This document shows, in pieces, positions 2,544 to 11,537 of a stretch of DNA of 31,131 nucleotides. Positions within the stretch are counted from its first letter, which is position 1. Every line of letters begins with the position of its first letter. This DNA comes from a virus. Its lineage: Duplodnaviria; Caudoviricetes. The stretch lies in the IMG/VR virus record IMGVR_UViG_3300020045_001881, positions 1-31,131 of that record. One strand, written 5' to 3'. The notes below the pieces were generated by a model, which worked only from the letters and a program-made list of their open reading frames with translations, ran no database searches and had not been told where the DNA came from. Both the position numbers and the translations under genes were made by a program.

Positions 2544-2929
2544 ACATGTGGGCCGCATTAGTTCCTGAACAGCGCATAACGCATCGCCATGTCGTCGCAA
2601 AACCGCAGCCAGACAAGCGAGAAAAGCGCCTGAATGACGCCGCATTGCGAACTTCTGCATCGCGCACGAAACGCGAGCTGAAACAGGCTGAAATCGCGCG
2701 GCTTATGGGGCTTGCAAACAGCAATGGCGCTAGCCAAACGCAGGGCGGCGCGCTGGAGGAAAAACGCCGCGAGCTTGGTTTGAAGCAATACGAACTTGCC
2801 GATCTTCTCGGAGTCAGCAAGCACTATTACAGCGACGTGAAGGCCGGCCGGCGCACACTGCATCTTGCTGCTGCGCGGCGAGCGTTTGCGCTTGGGGTGG
2901 ATGCGGGTGTGTTGCTGGGTAACGCATAG
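2540..2929 (+). CDS. XRE-family HTH protein
   Basis: ATGA overlap with AGGA RBS; RRELGLKQYELADLLGVSKHYYSDVKAGRR; stop codon lies within attC-like site A1. Confidence 0.7.
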   Translation: MNMWAALVPEQRITHRHVVAKPQPDKREKRLNDAALRTSASRTKRELKQAEIARLMGLANSNGASQTQGGALEEKRRELGLKQYELADLLGVSKHYYSDVKAGRRTLHLAAARRAFALGVDAGVLLGNA

Positions 2930-2970
2930 CTGCCCGGTGCGGAGCATCCGTGCCGAGCGTTGAGTTAAAC
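2917..2970 (-). repeat. attC-like site A1
   Basis: Minus strand GTTTAAC-TCAACG-CTCGGC...GGCAG-CTATGC-GTTACCC; R and L boxes present, L pairing imperfect. Confidence 0.6.
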
Positions 2971-2991
2971 CGAATTTTGATGGAGACGAAT

Positions 2992-3267
2992 ATGGACGAG
3001 CGAGGCGCGAAGGCGCAAGGACTAGAAGTGCACCGCCGAGATATGGCGTTTGTGCGTGGGTTTGTTACCTGCACGAACTGCGGAGCGAACTACCACGCGG
3101 CCAACCCGCGAGCAAGGACGTTCTGCCAGATGTACAGCAGGCCCGTGGAGCCGCTTGAAACTGAGAAGAACATTCTCATGGCCGAAGCGTGCGACCAGTG
3201 GGTTGCGGATGGACTGGACCGCAACATGGTTGTTCATCCTGACCACTCGTACAGATACGAAGATTGA
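2992..3267 (+). CDS. Cassette-borne hypothetical protein with CxxC
   Basis: GGAG RBS at 2982-2985; flanked by complementary GTTAAACCG(2964-2972)/CGGTTTAAC(3270-3278). Confidence 0.65.
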   Translation: MDERGAKAQGLEVHRRDMAFVRGFVTCTNCGANYHAANPRARTFCQMYSRPVEPLETEKNILMAEACDQWVADGLDRNMVVHPDHSYRYED

Positions 3268-3271
3268 TGCG

Positions 3272-3329
3272 GTTTAACGTTGGAGTTGAACGATGAACGA
3301 AGTGAATACGGTCGAACGACCTGTTATGC
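3272..3329 (-). repeat. attC-like site A2
   Basis: Minus strand GCATAAC-AGGTCG-TTCGAC...TTCAA-CTCCAAC-GTTAAAC. Confidence 0.7.
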
Positions 3330-3577
3330 CGGTGGCGTGGATGTCGCTGCGTGATAGGTTTTACAAGACCCGCATGATGGCTGTAGAGAACTGCGAACAA
3401 CTGGTGACGGCGCTATACGCGCTGACGCCTGAGCAAGTCGCTGTGCTGGAAAAGTACGCGGCAGATAAAGCATGGGCGGCGCGAGATTTGAGCAAATGCA
3501 AGTGTGACCACAACGAAACGTGCGAACACTGCTATCAGCCGAACCTACGGCATAACGCAGAAATAACCGGCGGCTGA
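3293..3577 (+). CDS. Cassette-borne phage hypothetical protein
   Basis: Starts inside A2 (alternative ATG at 3326), stops inside A3; PVAW module and Cys-rich C-terminus. Confidence 0.65.
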   Translation: MNEVNTVERPVMPVAWMSLRDRFYKTRMMAVENCEQLVTALYALTPEQVAVLEKYAADKAWAARDLSKCKCDHNETCEHCYQPNLRHNAEITGG

Positions 3578-3607
3578 AAGCCGTCCGCGTTGATTGACGG
3601 GTTAGCC
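3550..3607 (-). repeat. attC-like site A3
   Basis: Minus strand GGCTAAC-CCGTCA-ATCAAC-GCGGAC GGCTTTCAGCC GCCG-GTTAT-TTCTGC-GTTATGC; canonical architecture. Confidence 0.85.
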
Positions 3608-3632
3608 GTCTGATAACTACGGAGAAAAGAAG

Positions 3633-4052
3633 ATGAAACCGGAACAGAAACTGAAATGGGCGGTGCTGGCAAAAGTGGCCGGATGGGAGAAGAAGCCGGC
3701 GCCAGAGTACCCGTGCGCGAACGTGGACGAACTCTACGACGCGCTGGTCGAAGCGGAGTCACATTGGGATGGCAAGTCCGAAGTGCGCAGCGGCGAGGTT
3801 GAGACCGGCCTGCCGTGCGACTGGTCACGCCACTACGAGAGCAAGGCCGTTGCCATGAAGATGCCTGACGGCTCGTGGGTCGGATGGACGTACTGGTACG
3901 GCGGTGGCAAGCACGGCGAACCGGAGGCGATTGACTGGATGGAAGACGCCTACGACTTGGATTGCCGCGAAGAGGAAAAGACGATGATCGTGCGGACATT
4001 CAGCAAGCCCGAGACGGCTAACGCAAATTCCACGACACGTCCAAATAACTAA
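3633..4052 (+). CDS. Cassette-borne conserved phage hypothetical protein
   Basis: GGAG RBS; SRHYESKAVA...WVGWTYWYGGGKHGEPEAIDW; ends GTTAGCCGTCT(3601-3611)/AGACGGCTAAC(4012-4022) are complementary. Confidence 0.8.
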   Translation: MKPEQKLKWAVLAKVAGWEKKPAPEYPCANVDELYDALVEAESHWDGKSEVRSGEVETGLPCDWSRHYESKAVAMKMPDGSWVGWTYWYGGGKHGEPEAIDWMEDAYDLDCREEEKTMIVRTFSKPETANANSTTRPNN

Positions 4053-4062
4053 TTACTGCGAC

Positions 4063-4263
4063 ATGTCGCATAACTATGGAGCCGATATGCAGCGATCAAA
4101 AATAGCGATCTGCGTGCCGCGCGACAAAGGCATGCCGCCATACGCGCAGTGCGCCGGATGCTCGCGGACTGCTTGGGCTATTGCTGACGGCAAGCGGCCA
4201 ATTCAGCACCCGCCAGCGCTTGATAAACAGGGCGAGTGCCCGAGTAGATTGGAGATGAAATGA
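4063..4263 (+). CDS. Small hypothetical protein (start uncertain)
   Basis: Cys-containing ORF coupled to the next gene by ATGA. Confidence 0.5.
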   Translation: MSHNYGADMQRSKIAICVPRDKGMPPYAQCAGCSRTAWAIADGKRPIQHPPALDKQGECPSRLEMK

Positions 4264-6045: not shown

Positions 6046-6281
6046 GCGCCATGAACCTACAACCCATAGCAATTGACCCCGACGGCGCAGCGCAGTTTGT
6101 GGCCTTGTCGGTCAGCACACTGGAAAAACTTGTGCGCCAAGGCGACTTCCCAAAGCCGCGAAAAGTCAGCGACCGCCGCGTGGCTTATCTGGTGCGCGAG
6201 TTGATTGAATGGATGGAGTCGCGCCCGGTGAGTGATCTGCTGCCGCCTGCGAATACTGGGGCGAAGAAGGGGGCGGCGTGA
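6042..6281 (+). CDS. AlpA-family excisionase/recombination directionality factor
   Basis: LSVSTLEKLVRQGDFPKPRKVSDRRVAY; located near the integrase. Confidence 0.85.
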   Translation: MSAMNLQPIAIDPDGAAQFVALSVSTLEKLVRQGDFPKPRKVSDRRVAYLVRELIEWMESRPVSDLLPPANTGAKKGAA

Positions 6282-7000
6282 ATGAGTTGGCTCTTTTCGC
6301 GGGCGCTGGTGGAGGAATACTCGGCGGCAAGCTGCTCGGCTGGCGAACAGTCTGCGCAGTCGAGTTCAACCCCTACGCCGCAAGCGTTCTTGCCCAACGA
6401 CAGAATGAAGGACTTCTCCCTGCCTTCCCGGTTTGGGATGACGTTCGGACCTTTGATGGACACCCTTGGCGCGGACGTGTTGACGTGGTTTCTGGCGGCT
6501 TTCCCTGCCAGGACATCAGCGCGGCAGGCAAGGGAGGCGGCATTGACGGCGCCCGCTCTGGGCTCTGGCGAGAAATGGCCAGAATCATTGGCGAGATTCA
6601 ACCCCGATTCGTCCTCGTGGAAAACAGCCCAATGCTCACTGTTCGCGGACTCGGACGAGTCCTTGGGGATCTGGCCCAAATGGGGTTTGATGCTCGATGG
6701 GGAGTGCTGGGAGCTGCCCACGTTGGCGCGCCCCATCTCCGAGAGCGAATCTGGATTCTGGCCGACGCCGACGGCAGTTACAGCGACGGGTGGCGCAGCG
6801 CTCTGCAAGTGGGGCGGTTCGGGCGCCCGAGCAAAGTTGCGGACGATGGTGACGGCAAAGGAGTTGAATGGCCCGCTAAATCCCCAGTGGGTATCCTGGC
6901 TGATGGGGTGGCCGCTCGGGTGGAGCAGCTTACTGCCCTTGGAAACGGGCAGGTTCCAGCAGTGGCAGCAGCAGCATGGAGAATGCTCGGAGGTTGCTAA
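6278..7000 (+). CDS. C5-cytosine DNA methyltransferase, catalytic (alpha-like) chain lacking motif IX
   Basis: Motifs I (LFAGAGG), IV (GGFPCQD), VI (ENSP), VIII (HLRERIW), X (ALGNGQVP). Confidence 0.9.
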   Translation: MNELALFAGAGGGILGGKLLGWRTVCAVEFNPYAASVLAQRQNEGLLPAFPVWDDVRTFDGHPWRGRVDVVSGGFPCQDISAAGKGGGIDGARSGLWREMARIIGEIQPRFVLVENSPMLTVRGLGRVLGDLAQMGFDARWGVLGAAHVGAPHLRERIWILADADGSYSDGWRSALQVGRFGRPSKVADDGDGKGVEWPAKSPVGILADGVAARVEQLTALGNGQVPAVAAAAWRMLGGC

Positions 7001-7034
7001 ATTAACGCCTCCAGCCTCTCCGCCAGCAGCGTAA
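6282..7034 (+). CDS. Overlapping-frame methyltransferase partner (beta-like) chain with motif IX
   Basis: 250 open codons in the +1 frame; WPTPTA and LNPQWVSWLMGWPLGWS (motif IX-like). Confidence 0.7.
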   Translation: MSWLFSRALVEEYSAASCSAGEQSAQSSSTPTPQAFLPNDRMKDFSLPSRFGMTFGPLMDTLGADVLTWFLAAFPARTSARQAREAALTAPALGSGEKWPESLARFNPDSSSWKTAQCSLFADSDESLGIWPKWGLMLDGECWELPTLARPISESESGFWPTPTAVTATGGAALCKWGGSGARAKLRTMVTAKELNGPLNPQWVSWLMGWPLGWSSLLPLETGRFQQWQQQHGECSEVAKLTPPASPPAA

Positions 7035-8238
7035 GCCAGTGCCGGCGCTCTGTGTCGTATTCGTAAAGGTTATAAATCCCCACTACGCCAGGCTGAACGT
7101 GGCCCAATATCGCCTCACCTATTTCATTGTGGCAACCCATCGCCGCCAGCATCGTGCGCCCGGTGCGCCGCAGATCATGTGGGCTCCAGTGCGTAACGGT
7201 CAGGCGTTGGCGCACATGGTCCGGCCTGCTCTTGCAATACGGTTGCAGGTAGTTAACCTTGCTTTGCATGTAAGTCTGCTGCTGGTGCCCGACAACACCC
7301 GCTCTTGACGTGCTCGGAAAAAGCCAGCCATCACAGCGCAGGCGCTGCACGATCTCCAGCGCCCGCCCGACAAGCGGCACGCGCAGATCGGTCGCCGCAG
7401 CTCGGTGCGCGCCCTTGGTCAACGCCTTGGGAACGGTCCACCAAACCCCATCCGTTTCGTCCGTGATCTGGTTGCCGTGCATCTGCACAATCTCAGCGCC
7501 GCGCGTGCAGGTCCACAATTGAACTGTCAGAAAGTCCTGAACTTGCTGGGAAAATAGCGCCAGGTCGTGATTGAGCAGCGTCTTGATTTCCTTGTCGCTC
7601 AAGGTGCGTTTCGCCGTGCCCTTGTGCTTGCCATCGCGGATTGCACCCTTGCTGCGCAGCTTTCGCACCGCGACCAATCTCCACCAGTTTGGTAGCTCAT
7701 CGTCAATGCGCCCCGCGTCCAGCGCATAAGCCCAGGCCGCGCCCATCTCGGTTTTGACGCTGCCGGCAAGTACCGGGCGGTCACTCAAGCCTTCCACCAG
7801 ATCAAACACAAAGCGCCGGGTCACGTCAGCCGCTGGCAGGTCGGCATGGTCGGCCAGTGCGTTGACAAGACGCTGATGCACGGCCTTTGCCCCGCGCGCT
7901 TCCCGGCGTTTGGCAAGGTAGCCGCTCGCATAGTCGTCCACCATCTGGCCCAGGGTGTAGCCTGCATCCGGCGCGTTCTTTGGCTTTGTTTTGCGCGTCA
8001 GGTCTTCGCCTGCGTCCCTGCGTGCGCGAAGCTCCTGCCACTGCTGGGCGGCTTCGGCCACGGGCATTGCGGGCCATGAGCCGATTTTTATTTGCTTTAA
8101 TCTGCCGTGAAGATCGCGATGACGGTAAATCCAGGTGTGCCGCGTTTGCGCCCGCACAAGATGCAGCCCAGGGCAACCGCCCACGACAATGTGCTCACCC
8201 GGTTTAAGCAGTTTTGCAGCCCGCGCATCAAAGTACAT
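6997..8238 (-). CDS. int: P4-type tyrosine integrase with N-terminal arm-binding domain
   Basis: GLHLV...WIYR...IKIGSWPAM arm domain; catalytic TCTRGAE, HDLRRT, ILGH and IYNLY motifs; alternative GTG starts at 8241/8244. Confidence 0.92.
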   Translation of the reverse strand: MYFDARAAKLLKPGEHIVVGGCPGLHLVRAQTRHTWIYRHRDLHGRLKQIKIGSWPAMPVAEAAQQWQELRARRDAGEDLTRKTKPKNAPDAGYTLGQMVDDYASGYLAKRREARGAKAVHQRLVNALADHADLPAADVTRRFVFDLVEGLSDRPVLAGSVKTEMGAAWAYALDAGRIDDELPNWWRLVAVRKLRSKGAIRDGKHKGTAKRTLSDKEIKTLLNHDLALFSQQVQDFLTVQLWTCTRGAEIVQMHGNQITDETDGVWWTVPKALTKGAHRAAATDLRVPLVGRALEIVQRLRCDGWLFPSTSRAGVVGHQQQTYMQSKVNYLQPYCKSRPDHVRQRLTVTHWSPHDLRRTGRTMLAAMGCHNEIGEAILGHVQPGVVGIYNLYEYDTERRHWLTLLAERLEALI

Positions 8239-8248
8239 CACCACCCCA

Positions 8249-8502
8249 AAAACCTATACTAAAACCCATACCAAGGGCCAAGTGTAGCCGGGTTTAAGCA
8301 AGCGCAGAAAAGGCAAAACTACGGCGAAAAGTTACGCCAAACAGGCGAAATATGATGGTAAATCAACGGCTTACGAGATTAATCCCAATGAAATCAACGA
8401 CTTACGAGAATGCTGAAAAACATGAACATAGTGATTCTTGAAAACAGTCTTCTCCAATGGAGAAACGGAGTTTTCTGAAAAACACATACTAAAACCTATA
8501 CT
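8249..8502. other. Putative attP
   Basis: Two pairs of tandem 12-bp repeats (8249-8272, 8479-8502) bracket two WATCAANNNNTTR matches; lies beside the int start. Confidence 0.75.
8361..8404 (+). promoter_or_regulatory. Two IHF-binding consensus sites
   Basis: AATCAACGGCTTA (8361-8373) and AATCAACGACTTA (8392-8404). Confidence 0.75.
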
Positions 8503-8568
8503 TGAACAGTCAGCGCGACCGTTGGCGCATAGACCATTTTCGCGGCGTCACGCAAATGGAAATACCTG

Positions 8569-8597
8569 TTGCGATGCTGGTTTAATCGGAGTATATT
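8569..8597 (+). promoter_or_regulatory. Sigma70-like promoter facing cassette array B
   Basis: TTGCGA-17 bp-TATATT. Confidence 0.65.
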
Positions 8598-8604
8598 TAA
8601 TTGT

Positions 8605-8665
8605 GATTGACGCCGCCTTAACGCGACACCCGTAAGGGCGGTCGCCGTTGAAGGCACAGTTATGC
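8605..8665 (-). repeat. attC-like site B1 (terminal, degenerate R')
   Basis: Minus strand GCATAAC-TGTGCC-TTCAAC-GGCGAC...GTCGC-GTTAA-GGCGGC-GTCAATC. Confidence 0.7.
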
Positions 8666-8680
8666 AACAGGAAGGATGAA

Positions 8681-8923
8681 ATGGAAACGACACCTAGAGT
8701 TATTGGGCTATCGCGTGACAATAGAACCCAGCGATGGAGCGTAACGTGCCCGAAGTGCGGCCATGTATTTGAACCGCAAACGACGAGACTGTCATGGCAA
8801 GACATTGACCGTCCTAAATCAAAGTGCGGAGCGCGAATGATGGCTGACTACAACTCAGAGCCTCCGACCGTGAGGCTGGCGCATAACGCCGCGTTAAGCG
8901 GCGGGCGCAGCCCGTCCGCTTGA
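8681..8923 (+). CDS. Cassette-borne zinc-ribbon protein
   Basis: AGGAAGGA RBS; CPKCG; bounded by GTTATGC/GCATAAC; stop inside B2. Confidence 0.7.
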   Translation: METTPRVIGLSRDNRTQRWSVTCPKCGHVFEPQTTRLSWQDIDRPKSKCGARMMADYNSEPPTVRLAHNAALSGGRSPSA

Positions 8924-8937
8924 ACTGCTGGTTATGC
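8881..8937 (-). repeat. attC-like site B2
   Basis: Minus strand GCATAAC-CAGCAG-TTCAAG-CGGAC GGGCTGCGCCCG CCG-CTTAA-CGCGGC-GTTATGC; canonical. Confidence 0.9.
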
Positions 8938-8963
8938 CGGCGAACTTTGAAAGAGGAGGCGAC

Positions 8964-9290
8964 ATGAGTATTGAAAAACAAATCGTTGAAGCTCAGTACA
9001 TGACCAGTGCTTTGCGACGAGAAGCCGCAGAGGAAATCGCGAGGTTGCGCAACGCATTGGCCCAAAGCGTGCAGATTGTCGCAGAACACCGTGACGGGCG
9101 TCTGGCCGCACTGGAACGGGCCGCAGTCTTTGAGGCGCGGCTGCAAGAGATTGGCGACTTGGCGGCGAGTAGCCAAACAGGCCCGGCACTGCGTGAAGTG
9201 TTGGCACAGATCGAGACGATGACGGATATGAGGCATAACGCAAAAAGTGAGGGGGCGAGCGGATTTATCGCGAAGCTCCCTCTCGACTGA
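8964..9290 (+). CDS. Cassette-borne coiled-coil phage protein
   Basis: GAGGAGG RBS; EAAEEIARLR module; stop inside B3. Confidence 0.7.
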   Translation: MSIEKQIVEAQYMTSALRREAAEEIARLRNALAQSVQIVAEHRDGRLAALERAAVFEARLQEIGDLAASSQTGPALREVLAQIETMTDMRHNAKSEGASGFIAKLPLD

Positions 9291-9300
9291 CGGGTTCGAC
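9233..9300 (-). repeat. attC-like site B3
   Basis: Minus strand GTCGAAC-CCGTCA-GTCGAG-AGGGAG...CCCC-CTCAC-TTTTTGC-GTTATGC. Confidence 0.85.
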
Positions 9301-9343
9301 GGCGACCGTACTGGAAACCACACACCATACCGAGGACGATACG

Positions 9344-9613
9344 ATGCAAACAGAACAAGCGGTGAAGATGGCAGCGAAGCTCTACGAGTGCCGAGACACG
9401 GCAAAGCGGCTCTTTGGCACGGCCTACCAGCAGCGAATGGACGCCTACGGCCAAGCCGTGAAGTCTGCCGCCAACGCGATGAATTGCAGCGAAGTGGCCG
9501 CAGCGACGACGCTGGCGACCAAGGCGGGCGGACTGTCGGCGATCTGCTTCCTGGCCGCCGTGGTGGAGATGACCGAGCCGTCGAACGCTGGAGGTAAGCG
9601 GAGTGACGACTAG
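9344..9613 (+). CDS. Cassette-borne hypothetical protein
   Basis: GAGG RBS; ends GTTCGACGGC(9294-9303)/GCCGTCGAAC(9577-9586) are complementary; stop inside B4. Confidence 0.75.
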   Translation: MQTEQAVKMAAKLYECRDTAKRLFGTAYQQRMDAYGQAVKSAANAMNCSEVAAATTLATKAGGLSAICFLAAVVEMTEPSNAGGKRSDD

Positions 9614-9660
9614 GAGCGAAGCGACGACGGCGGTACGGCCGCTTGACCGCAATGTTATGC
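9580..9660 (-). repeat. attC-like site B4
   Basis: Minus strand GCATAAC-ATTGCG-GTCAAG-CGG...CCG-CTTAC-CTCCAGC-GTTCGAC. Confidence 0.85.
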
Positions 9661-10145
9661 GTATTTGGTGCTGCGGATGTGGTTGTGACGTGGATGCACG
9701 GCTGACGGACGGAGGAGAGATTTACCCGCACCGTGAAGACCTGCATAGCCTGCCGTTTTGGCGCTGCAACACCTGCGGTAACTTTGTTGGGTGCCACCAC
9801 AAGACAAAGAACCGGACGGCCCCGCTTGGGTGCATTCCTACGCCGGAGTTGAAGGAAGCCCGCAAGCACTTGCATGCACTGATTGACCCGATATGGCAGT
9901 CGGGGCGTATGGGGCGGCGCGAACTGTACGAGGCGATTAGCCGCGAGGTTGGCTGGAACTATCACACGGCCAAGACTCGCACGATTGAAGAGGCGCGGGC
10001 AGCCTACAAAGCCGCGCAGAAGCTGACGCATAAGCAATATATAGAGCAAAAGGCGCCCTATAACACCACTGCAGGCGCAACAAAAAGCGGCGCAAAGTCT
10101 CACACACCAGCGCCATGCAGCTACATTAAAAATAGCAACAATTAG
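9603..10145 (+). CDS. Cassette-borne DUF3268-like zinc-finger protein
   Basis: CCGCG...EIYPHR...CNTCGNFVGCH...PLG...H..IDPIW; start at GTG 9603 (GGAGG RBS inside B4) or ATG 9657. Confidence 0.75.
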   Translation: MTTRSEATTAVRPLDRNVMRIWCCGCGCDVDARLTDGGEIYPHREDLHSLPFWRCNTCGNFVGCHHKTKNRTAPLGCIPTPELKEARKHLHALIDPIWQSGRMGRRELYEAISREVGWNYHTAKTRTIEEARAAYKAAQKLTHKQYIEQKAPYNTTAGATKSGAKSHTPAPCSYIKNSNN

Positions 10146-10150
10146 AGCAG

Positions 10151-10306
10151 ATGAAAAAACCAGGCCGGCCAGTCGGAACAAAGAAGCCGCCGACCTACCG
10201 CGTGCAAGTGATGCTTGATGAACCGGCGCCGCGTCTATCGCGCATCAAGCGGCTGGAGTGGATTGTTGAGCGGTTGCAAAGGATGATTGAGAGGATGAAG
10301 CGATGA
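10151..10306 (+). CDS. Small basic, putative DNA-binding protein (51 aa)
   Basis: MKKPGRPVGTKK AT-hook-like start; ATGA overlap with the next gene. Confidence 0.5.
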   Translation: MKKPGRPVGTKKPPTYRVQVMLDEPAPRLSRIKRLEWIVERLQRMIERMKR

Positions 10307-10536
10307 AACGGTACAACCATTTTTGCGGTTATGACGGCGGCGGGCCAGCAGAGGCCGAAGAGTCGCCAGATGGCGCCTTTGTTCGATACGATGATGCGGT
10401 AGCTGCCGTTGCAGCAGAGCGCGAGCGGTGCGCGAAGGCTGTGGAGTCGCTGGATGACGACTACCTGCGCGCATCTCCGTGTCGCAATGCGCTGAAACGC
10501 GCCGCCAAGGCGATACGGGCGCCATCAATTCCGTGA
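10303..10536 (+). CDS. Phage hypothetical protein
   Basis: MKRY...ESPDGAFVRYDD and AERERCAK...AKAIRA modules. Confidence 0.7.
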   Translation: MKRYNHFCGYDGGGPAEAEESPDGAFVRYDDAVAAVAAERERCAKAVESLDDDYLRASPCRNALKRAAKAIRAPSIP

Positions 10537-10546
10537 CGCCACGAAA

Positions 10547-10798
10547 ATGAACGGAGACACAATGGACAACGTACAGTCAACCGGAATGCGGTACGTTTTG
10601 CACCCTGGTTACGTAACCAGCAAAAATGACGGTCAAGAGCATTTCATCGGCGGTCCGCGATTGGCTATGTTGTACGGGGTTGACATGCGCCAGTGCGTAT
10701 TTGGCGACGTGAAGGAATACCGAGAGCAGGAGGGCGACGTGCATTTGTGGCCTGACTACCACGGCAACTACACCACGCCTTCTAATGGAAGCAGTTAA
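10547..10798 (+). CDS. Phage hypothetical protein (likely start 10562)
   Basis: GGAG RBS before ATG 10562; YVLHPGYVTSKNDGQEHFI; abuts the o-spanin stop. Confidence 0.65.
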   Translation: MNGDTMDNVQSTGMRYVLHPGYVTSKNDGQEHFIGGPRLAMLYGVDMRQCVFGDVKEYREQEGDVHLWPDYHGNYTTPSNGSS

Positions 10799-11038
10799 TC
10801 ACCTGCCAAGCCGCGCCGCCCTGCACTCATCATACATAGCCGCCAGCTCCTGCGCCTTGAGAATCCAAGCGCCCAGCGATCCATCAAGGAGCGGCGTGCG
10901 TTCCGGGCAGCTTGAGACCCCCAGCGGGGTTTGTTGCGGCGGCTTTACCGTCACGCTGCTGCACGCTGTCAATGCTAGAATTGAAAGCATCGACAGCAGC
11001 CTGCGAAGATTTGCAATCGCGATAAATGGTGCTTTCAT
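10799..11038 (-). CDS. Rz1: o-spanin lipoprotein
   Basis: Lipobox LTAC, Pro-rich, overlaps the i-spanin 3' half in another frame. Confidence 0.75.
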   Translation of the reverse strand: MKAPFIAIANLRRLLSMLSILALTACSSVTVKPPQQTPLGVSSCPERTPLLDGSLGAWILKAQELAAMYDECRAARLGR

Positions 11039-11255
11039 GGATTTCCTTCTCCAGCGTCTGCCGGATGGTTTGGTGCTTCGGCTTTAGCTTGGCAATGGCT
11101 TCGGCTGCGACGGTGTTGGCTGCGTCAACCGCTTCGGCGACGAGTTGCTGCTTGTCGATCTGGCTGGCTTTTTCGTGATCCACGCCGAGCCGGAAGCCAC
11201 CGAAGCCGGCGCCAAGGACTGACAGCAGCGCGGCGATGATGATGTAAGGGTTCAT
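10884..11255 (-). CDS. Rz: i-spanin
   Basis: N-terminal TM, helical periplasmic region with Cys, downstream of endolysin. Confidence 0.75.
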   Translation of the reverse strand: MNPYIIIAALLSVLGAGFGGFRLGVDHEKASQIDKQQLVAEAVDAANTVAAEAIAKLKPKHQTIRQTLEKEIHESTIYRDCKSSQAAVDAFNSSIDSVQQRDGKAAATNPAGGLKLPGTHAAP

Positions 11256-11464
11256 GTCGATTTATTGCAGCTCTGCAATCCCTGCCGATAAGCCGCCTCA
11301 CTCGCGGCGCGGATGATTTGCATGAAGGCGTCGCGCGTGAAAAGTGCGCAGCCGCCTTCCGCCGCACATTTGGCCGCCTGTTGCTCAGGAGTAAGTTCAG
11401 CATCTTGGGCGACTAGCGCGGTCGTTCCGGCCAGCAGGAACACGATAAAAGCAGCTTTCAACAT
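11252..11464 (-). CDS. Small secreted protein in the lysis cassette
   Basis: GAGG RBS; signal peptide MLKAAFIVFLLAGTTALVA; three Cys; ATGA overlap with Rz. Confidence 0.6.
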   Translation of the reverse strand: MLKAAFIVFLLAGTTALVAQDAELTPEQQAAKCAAEGGCALFTRDAFMQIIRAASEAAYRQGLQSCNKST

Positions 11465-11537
11465 GATGATTCCTCTGTTGGCCAAAGACGAAACTCCGCC
11501 GCGCGATGACCAACTCGACCGCACGGCGGATAGAAAC

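What the first reader, a model, noticed from the sequence alone, without database searches (positions are those of the whole stretch)
8605..10034. Four-cassette integron-type attC array in a phage, with no IntI
Seen: four attC-like palindromes (8605-8665, 8881-8937, 9233-9300, 9580-9660) with R and L boxes and the unpaired L base, separating single ORFs. The two ends of each unit complement each other and vary together between units: GTTATGC/GCATAAC, GTTATGCC/GGCATAAC, GTTCGACGGC/GCCGTCGAAC, GTTATGCGT/ACGCATAAG. Established: this is the footprint of circular cassettes integrated by IntI, and attC clusters without an integrase (CALINs) are known in bacteria. Inference: the phage gains and shuffles accessory genes as attC cassettes, using a host IntI in trans or an unrecognised recombinase.
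Basis: partly seen in the sequence, partly recalled or inferred. Interest (0 to 1): 0.92.

Follow-up and report, generated by a model that had tools for sequence, protein, structure and literature searches.

The report
Phage integron cassettes facing backwards
A bacterial virus carries four small genes joined by integron recombination sites, but each gene points the opposite way to bacterial integron genes; other phages hold the same gene units beside other neighbours, and many encode their own integron integrase, which likely does the swapping.

Summary
The array is real. A model built from 26 bacterial attC sites hits three of the four sites (31-48 bits); the first is decayed (13 bits). Three of the four units recur elsewhere with other neighbours, homology ending at the integrase cut point. 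With one pattern, 65 of 84 viral sites are reversed (6 normal) against 13 of 122 bacterial-genome sites (74 normal). No unknown recombinase is needed: 70 distinct phage loci carry an integron integrase directly after a compact attI-like site, and one holds this array's third cassette. A second array in this window (2917-4089) ends in such a site. This array's own end is not shown to be attI, and the 31-kb contig is partial. Phage attC clusters are published (Qi 2023); I did not find reversed polarity or phage integrase clades in seven searches. A site Qi recombined with IntI1 is itself reversed. The scan noted reversed polarity before on other DNA, mostly Bacteroidota phages with Xer-like recombinases.

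The parts
8569..8597 (+). Predicted sigma-70 promoter (TTGCGA-17-TATATT) reading into the array
   Evidence: 2 such sites in 8240-10850 against 1.2 +/- 1.2 expected, so only its position argues for it
8605..8665 (-). attC site 1, decayed (GAC for AAC); its body belongs to cassette 1
   Evidence: 13 bits, E 0.46; L stem folds; G at position 16 of the plus strand
8681..8923 (+). Cassette 1 ORF, 80 aa, Cys-rich zinc-ribbon-like; stop lies inside attC 2
   Evidence: Weak Pfam/NCBIfam zinc-ribbon hits below cut-off; 2 homologs, neither with the attC-encoded tail
8881..8937 (-). attC site 2, intact
   Evidence: 47.5 bits; folding z -4.1; recombinogenic fold probability 0.48
8964..9290 (+). Cassette 2 ORF, 108 aa, no family; stop lies inside attC 3
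   Evidence: 7 closest homologs (79-81%) agree up to ..RHN, then six carry different tails and one ends
9233..9300 (-). attC site 3; its body travels with ORF 3
   Evidence: 31.3 bits; alignment with L001-L003
9344..9613 (+). Cassette 3 ORF, 89 aa, no family; stop lies inside attC 4
   Evidence: 15 viral loci; same cassette in the IntI-bearing phage locus L001/L303
9580..9660 (-). attC site 4; its body travels with ORF 4 and holds that gene's predicted ribosome site and GTG start
   Evidence: 39.9 bits; alignment with L016/L017
9603..10145 (+). Cassette 4 ORF, DUF3268 zinc-finger family
   Evidence: PF11672 58 bits, cut-off 28.4; phrog_1934
10028..10118 (.). End of the array: damaged R box (GCATAAG) and a possible decayed attI; not established
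   Evidence: Homology to L016/L017 stops here; TAAC 30 nt on, attI mode 31; no attI-model hit; 13 of 150 shuffles align as well
2917..2970 (-). Second array (not in the finding): attC
   Evidence: 21.6 bits
3272..3329 (-). Second array: attC
   Evidence: 27.8 bits
3550..3607 (-). Second array: attC
   Evidence: 33.4 bits
4016..4089 (.). Second array: phage-type attI-like site; an unrelated ORF stands where intI starts in relatives
   Evidence: Best attI-model hit in the window, E 2e-4; alignment; 0 of 150 shuffles align as well
6997..8244 (-). Prophage integrase; not an integron integrase
   Evidence: PF00589 + PF13356 arm-binding domain; no TIGR02249 hit

Best explanation
This is an array of four integron cassettes of reversed polarity, each an attC hairpin followed by its gene on the folding strand, likely built by a phage-type integron whose integrase this contig lacks and likely exchanged now only when an integrase comes from a co-resident phage or the host. 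Shown: site anatomy, polarity, exchange of units 2-4 at the AA|C point, and phage loci with the layout cassettes > attI-like site > intI on one strand. Inferred: IntI cuts the folded plus strand, circles insert at attI or another attC, new cassettes land at the promoter-far end, and the genes are read from a phage promoter upstream (8569-8597 here) instead of from a Pc at attI. Most ORFs have no stop of their own and end inside the next site. The two damaged outer ends suggest cassettes 2 and 3 are the ones still able to move.
For: Polarity: model hits all on minus; G16 and 10 of 10 box pairs with plus as folding strand, 6-8 of 10 with minus; same polarity as the published aadA7 bottom strand. 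The upstream body stays with its gene and the downstream one changes. Viral 65 reversed / 6 normal / 13 unclear of 84; genomes 13 / 74 / 35 of 122 (Fisher p 1e-23 on called sites). 50 of 50 model hits in 80 loci of ORF 3/4 relatives are antisense to the query gene. Upstream of phage attI-like sites 66 / 4 / 16 of 86; upstream of bacterial intI 2 / 33 / 8 of 43. 9 of 9 phage IntI tested pass TIGR02249 and form two viral-only groups. L001/L303 holds cassette 3 two cassettes from its attI-like site and intI. PH101_attC2, recombined by IntI1 in PMC9892861, lies on the coding strand of its flanking annotated genes.
Against: This array's end is not recognised as attI, and a scan for one guessed intact form gave only chance hits. 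No intI or remnant in the contig. The one relative sharing this integrase and attachment region diverges at 8562, 43 bases before the first site and not at a cut point, so the array arrived or left there as a block by another route. Cassette 1 is not shown to move. Sites 3 and 4 have low predicted folding (0.0004, 0.013; 14 bacterial controls 0.011-0.89). Orientation calls use my own ORF/ribosome-site heuristic, and the loci are related, so counts are not independent events. Normal-polarity phage arrays exist (TJE1, M16-3). No recombination was assayed here.
Confidence: 0.78

Rival explanations
1. The array was built in place by a host IntI inserting cassettes at a secondary (attG) site and then at resident attC sites, with no phage integron in its history; reversed cassettes were kept because only they are read from the phage promoter.
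For: IntI inserts cassettes at short GWT sites (10.1101/2022.09.11.507474, passages). IntI1 recombines reversed phage sites (PH101). 82 of 151 genomes in the family of G002 have an IntI over the cut-off. The array's end is not recognised as attI.
Against: Neither outer junction fits G|WT (top strand reads G|TC and C|TT). Bacterial cassettes are mostly normal (33 of 43 beside intI), so the host pool cannot readily supply reversed ones. Cassette 3 occurs in a complete phage integron, and the window's other array ends in a phage attI-like site.
Confidence: 0.14
2. A frozen remnant of a bacterial chromosomal integron picked up in one piece, with no cassette traffic among phages.
For: Such captures exist (Vibrio and Shewanella phages in PMC9892861). 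Both outer ends are damaged, and the block is missing in a relative without a cut-point junction.
Against: Captured bacterial pieces have normal polarity. Units 2-4 occur with many neighbours. The ORF 4 family is mostly ordinary phage genes: 57 of 65 loci without matched ends.
Confidence: 0.04
3. The palindromes are phage intergenic hairpins (regulatory or recombination-promoting) that resemble attC, and units swap by homologous recombination between similar hairpins.
For: Hairpin bodies are alike, phages recombine short homologies, and sites 3 and 4 fold weakly.
Against: Breakpoints fall at AA|C, outside the hairpin body, not within it. Unit-specific ends co-vary. A model from bacterial integrons recognises the sites strand-specifically, and IntI with an attI-like site follows such arrays.
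Confidence: 0.04

Closest known systems
Phage CALINs (attC clusters without integrase), Qi et al. 2023, PMC9892861
   Same: attC cluster in a phage, single small ORFs between sites, no intI nearby. Two of their phages (PH101, MW202573) have the reversed polarity seen here.
   Different: The paper does not describe genes antisense to attC; it calls the TJE1 and PH101 cassettes oriented in the same direction, as typical of bacterial arrays (figures not seen). It shows no exchange among phages and its complete integrons are bacterial types. TJE1 has normal polarity.
Classical integrons (class 1; Vibrio and betaproteobacterial chromosomal integrons): intI, attI, Pc, attC cassettes
   Same: attC anatomy, cut point, integrase family (TIGR02249), and the geometry of intI against attC (85 of 86 sites opposite intI).
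   Different: Genes face attI and intI instead of away; attC precedes its gene; the attI-like site lies a median 110 nt from the aligned intI start; a LexA-type box is rare (2 of 58 against 15 of 55); the integrases group apart from the bacterial ones sampled.
'Inverted integrase' integrons (passages in PMC8352920 and PMC13323075)
   Same: intI is transcribed in the same direction as the cassette genes.
   Different: There intI and attC are on the same strand; here intI and attC are opposite as usual and only the genes are flipped.
SALINs and attG insertions (10.1101/2022.09.11.507474)
   Same: Cassettes away from an integrase gene.
   Different: The outer junctions here do not fit the GWT consensus; the cassettes are reversed.

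Membership tests
attC site | R and L boxes that pair, with central spacers | tested here: met
   sites 2-4 above 20 bits; site 1 at 13 bits with GAC for AAC
attC site | Extrahelical G16 on the recombinogenic strand | tested here: met
   G at position 16 on the plus strand in 7 of 7 window sites
attC site | Folds into the recombinogenic hairpin | tested here: inconclusive
   Predicted probability 0.04, 0.48, 0.0004, 0.013
attC site | Recombined by IntI on the bottom strand | not testable with these tools
   Not assayed; shown in print for the reversed PH101 site
CALIN | Two or more attC sites, no intI nearby | tested here: met
   contig partial
Integron gene cassette | Unit exchanged at the G|TT (AA|C) point | tested here: met
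   Units 3 and 4 at DNA level, unit 2 at protein level; unit 1 not shown
Integron gene cassette | Gene precedes its attC, on the attC top strand | tested here: not met
   4 of 4 reversed
Complete integron | intI gene | tested here: not met
   None in the 31 kb; present in related phage loci
Complete integron | attI at the start of the array | tested here: inconclusive
   Not detected for this array; detected for the second array
Complete integron | Pc promoter at attI reading into the array | tested here: not met
   The only candidate lies at the far end and reads towards the attI end
IntegronFinder attC model | Hit with the published covariance model | not testable with these tools
   Not held; Rfam gave no hit; a home-built model was used

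The most novel reading that the evidence does not exclude
Temperate phages run their own branch of classical integrons, with their own IntI clades, compact attI and a reversed cassette pool made again and again from ordinary phage genes; the reversal keeps the two pools apart, so that bacterial cassettes (many of them anti-phage) are silent in a phage array and phage cassettes are silent in a bacterial one. Gene families caught both with and without cassette ends would then give a direct handle on how cassettes are made.
Probability: 0.35. Interest if true: 0.9.

Novelty: new variant of a known kind. Interest (0 to 1): 0.74.

Why it matters
Correct cassette orientation is treated as central to integron function: strand choice puts the gene under the Pc promoter (PMC5027507, passages). 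Here the same sites and the same integrase family are used with the gene flipped, across many phages. That points to site-specific, programmed gene exchange as one source of the small accessory genes in phage genomes, and to integrase groups missing from cultured phages (tblastn found 9 of 50,697 records). The origin of cassettes is an open question (my own knowledge); families seen both as plain phage genes and as cassettes with several different end sequences make it traceable. It is testable now: PH101 is an isolated phage, and the standard conjugation assay can take a phage IntI and attI.

Tried and rejected
Rfam: no hit in 6500-11500. Relatives of the prophage integrase with flanks: none in viral or metagenome contigs; ORF 2 in metagenome contigs: none; so no close relative with this locus could be aligned cassette by cassette. 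GenBank phages: only DUF3268 homologs, 23 records. A 3-base-deletion reading of the array's end: 40 hits, none in an attC or intI context; rejected. A position-weight model, an HMM and pairwise alignment did not identify 10028-10118 as attI. No intI stub follows either array end. Sequencing runs: one DNA holder with a small share, no RNA holder listed; its contigs showed no joint skipping a cassette, which proves nothing. The 24-base inverted repeat around the array is a palindrome that recurs in other phages, not evidence of an inversion switch. My first scanner missed Vibrio-type long sites at its strict setting, so the covariance model was built. L192 (bacterial) and L130 were first noted as reversed integrons but are 'unclear' and group with bacterial integrases; dropped. 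Rctr41k has an IntI-like gene with no attC hit in 10 kb. P12002L gave no hit with my model, so its polarity is untested. Reading frame at the junction did not separate viral from bacterial sites usefully.

Full report
Setting. The window is a whole 31,131-base viral contig of a temperate tailed phage: early genes and excisionase on plus, an arm-type integrase at 6997-8244 on minus, lysis and tail genes on minus. No terminase, portal or capsid gene was among the 52 ORFs scanned, so the genome is partial. The host is unknown; named integrase homologs include a Polaromonas bin at 64%, which suggests a betaproteobacterium. The array lies between the integrase and the lysis genes.

Observation. The four sites and their paired ends are as described. 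Units between cut points are 276, 352, 347 and 448 bases. A covariance model from 26 attC sites beside bacterial intI genes (26 of 30 candidates used) scores sites 2, 4 and 3 at 47.5, 39.9 and 31.3 bits and site 1 at 13. A structure-only scan separates only site 2 from shuffles, and sites 3 and 4 do not fold better than shuffles. The outer ends are damaged: GAC at site 1, AAG at 10034.

Polarity. Every model hit is on minus while the ORFs are on plus. With plus as the folding strand all four sites allow 10 of 10 box pairs and have G at position 16; with minus 6-8 of 10. The plus strand reads like the aadA7 bottom strand printed in the supplement of PMC9892861. Relatives settle which site belongs to which gene. 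L016 and L017 match the window at 90% from the AAC of site 4, through its body and ORF 4, to GCATAA at 10033, with other DNA on both sides. L001-L003 match from the AAC of site 3 to the AAC of site 4 and carry three different downstream bodies. The seven closest ORF 2 homologs agree up to the His-Asn encoded by the box; six then carry different tails and one ends. The mobile unit is therefore attC body plus downstream gene. Cassette 1 has only two homologs and is not shown to move.

How general. One attC pattern was scanned in viral contigs (96 loci) and in bacterial and archaeal genomes (123 loci; the scan stopped at 25 of 64 parts). By my ORF and ribosome-site heuristic, 65 of 84 distinct viral sites are reversed, 6 normal, 13 unclear; of 122 genome sites 13 are reversed, 74 normal, 35 unclear. 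Of 5 reversed genome loci whose long ORFs I scanned, 3 carry phage genes. Annotated records agree without the heuristic: TJE1 3 of 3 hits, the Vibrio chromosomal piece 6 of 6 and M16-3 6 of 6 lie with the annotated array genes; MW202573 4 of 4 and PH101 4 of 4 lie against them. The loci are related and the pattern is of one attC type, so these are not independent events.

The integrase. The contig has no intI or remnant, and its integrase misses TIGR02249. But L001, which holds cassette 3, continues through two more cassettes to a non-palindromic site, an IntI gene and the prophage integrase. Two scans gave 110 viral loci (the second kept the best 80 of 573 tyrosine-recombinase matches). Of 94 distinct rows (5 of them reference loci), 70 viral ones show a short site before intI, picked with patterns I wrote after viewing them: an R box supplied by the last cassette, an L-like box and one or two repeats ending TAAC. 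All 9 integrases tested pass TIGR02249 (330-431 bits, cut-off 265) with the catalytic residues aligned. Upstream of these sites 85 of 86 attC calls are opposite intI, as in normal integrons, but the genes are reversed in 66, normal in 4, unclear in 16 (44 of 70 loci had a call). Beside bacterial intI the same code gives 2 reversed, 33 normal, 8 unclear (26 of 62 loci). In a FastTree tree of 147 proteins, 78 of 84 viral ones fall in two viral-only groups (52, support 0.99; 26, support 0.87) and 6 among bacteria; the bacterial side is only the best hits from one class and one family, so this is provisional. A LexA-type box (motif recalled) lies upstream of 2 of 58 phage and 15 of 55 bacterial intI. 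That these sites are attI is inferred from position, not assayed.

This genome. A second array, not in the finding, has three reversed sites (2917-3607) and ends at 4016-4089 in the best attI-model hit of the window (E 2e-4, window not in training); an unrelated ORF starts where intI does in L379. So this phage has at least one integron platform without its integrase. The end of the finding's array is unresolved: a TAAC lies 30 bases on (mode 31 in 26 of the 50 attI-like sites that have one; chance 0.6%), but the HMM misses it and 13 of 150 shuffles align as well. A contig in run X1 with the same integrase region (about 91%) diverges at 8562, before the predicted promoter, so promoter and array came or went as a block.

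Mechanism. Inferred from integron biochemistry (PMC5027507, passages): IntI binds the folded plus strand, cuts at AA|C, and moves single-stranded units between attC sites and attI. Because intI, attI and attC keep their usual geometry, flipping the gene puts cassettes and intI in one transcript read from a phage promoter, with the newest cassette last. Three of the four ORFs here stop inside the next site and ORF 4 starts inside its own; a start inside the site was found for 28 of 220 viral sites on the bottom strand and 0 of 146 bacterial sites on the top strand. Experimental support by analogy: PH101_attC2 was recombined by IntI1 (PMC9892861, 5 of 6 sites worked), and that sequence lies on the coding strand of its flanking genes.

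Cargo. ORF 4 is DUF3268. Among 65 loci including the window, 6 have matched cassette ends, 57 do not and 2 are cut; the cassette forms sit in three places of a weakly supported tree. For ORF 3, 8 of 16 loci are cassettes with four different end sequences; in three of these types the downstream end is made of the gene's own Glu-Pro-Ser codons and the upstream end follows their synonymous changes. This fits repeated making of cassettes from phage genes, or selection on pairing with loss in others; it is a lead only. Bacterial cassettes include anti-phage systems (10.1101/2024.07.02.601686 and 10.1101/2024.07.02.601719; listing and start of abstract only), which is the basis of the silence idea; untested.

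Novelty. Phage attC clusters are known: 17 in 10,705 genomes (PMC9892861; I read the main text to the start of the references and part 1 of 2 of the supplement; figures and the Dryad annotation file were not seen and may show the polarity). Seven searches found no description of cassettes antisense to attC or of phage IntI clades; the library lacks most subscription papers. Passages only were read in PMC5027507, PMC8352920, PMC8876359, PMC13323075, 10.1101/2022.09.11.507474 and 10.64898/2026.09.14.751636. I noted the polarity before consulting the scan's index; it then showed several unchecked notes of reversed arrays in other phages, mostly Bacteroidota with Xer-like recombinases. What this case adds is the classical IntI version with bacterial controls. 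Verdict: a real array, a member of the attC-cluster kind by site anatomy but failing the gene-orientation feature; new variant; interest 0.74.

Noticed in passing
window 2917-4089: Second reversed array of three cassettes (355, 278, 466 bases) ending in a phage attI-like site, with an unrelated ORF in place of intI.
   Followed up: yes
window 8534-8559 and 10526-10549; L118 4705-4730; L007 4400-4425: A 26-base quasi-palindrome (CCATTT...AAATGG) flanks the array twice and recurs in other phages, in L118 just before an attC. A relative's homology ends 3 bases after the first copy.
   Followed up: partly
L015 about 2860-3330: An ORF 3 homolog appears to sit between the two arms of one Bacteroidota-type hairpin, that is inside its loop (by eye); a possible intermediate in cassette formation.
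   Followed up: no
L001-L008, ends of ORF 3: The upstream cassette end is the reverse complement of the gene's own last codons and tracks their synonymous changes.
   Followed up: partly
window 6278-7000; L304 5236-5961; L388 3924-4883: The Dcm-type methylase has no attC here, but homologs are the cassette next to the attI-like site in two phage integrons. A 250-codon overlapping frame (6282-7034) is also open.
   Followed up: no
L020 2110-2180; L152 1997-2061; L008 3091-3142; L117 6916-6981; L132 881-955: Further attI-model hits in viral loci without an intI in the stretch held.
   Followed up: no
L524 4601-5599 (Rctr41k, KX853513): IntI-like gene annotated xerD in a phage record, with no attC hit within 10 kb.
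   Followed up: partly
L308 and L328, 9901-10383: attC calls downstream of intI as well as upstream, on the same strand.
   Followed up: no
window 8254-8271 and 8486-8504: Repeated CTATACTAAAACC-type sequences on either side of an AT-rich gap next to the integrase, likely arm sites of attP.
   Followed up: no
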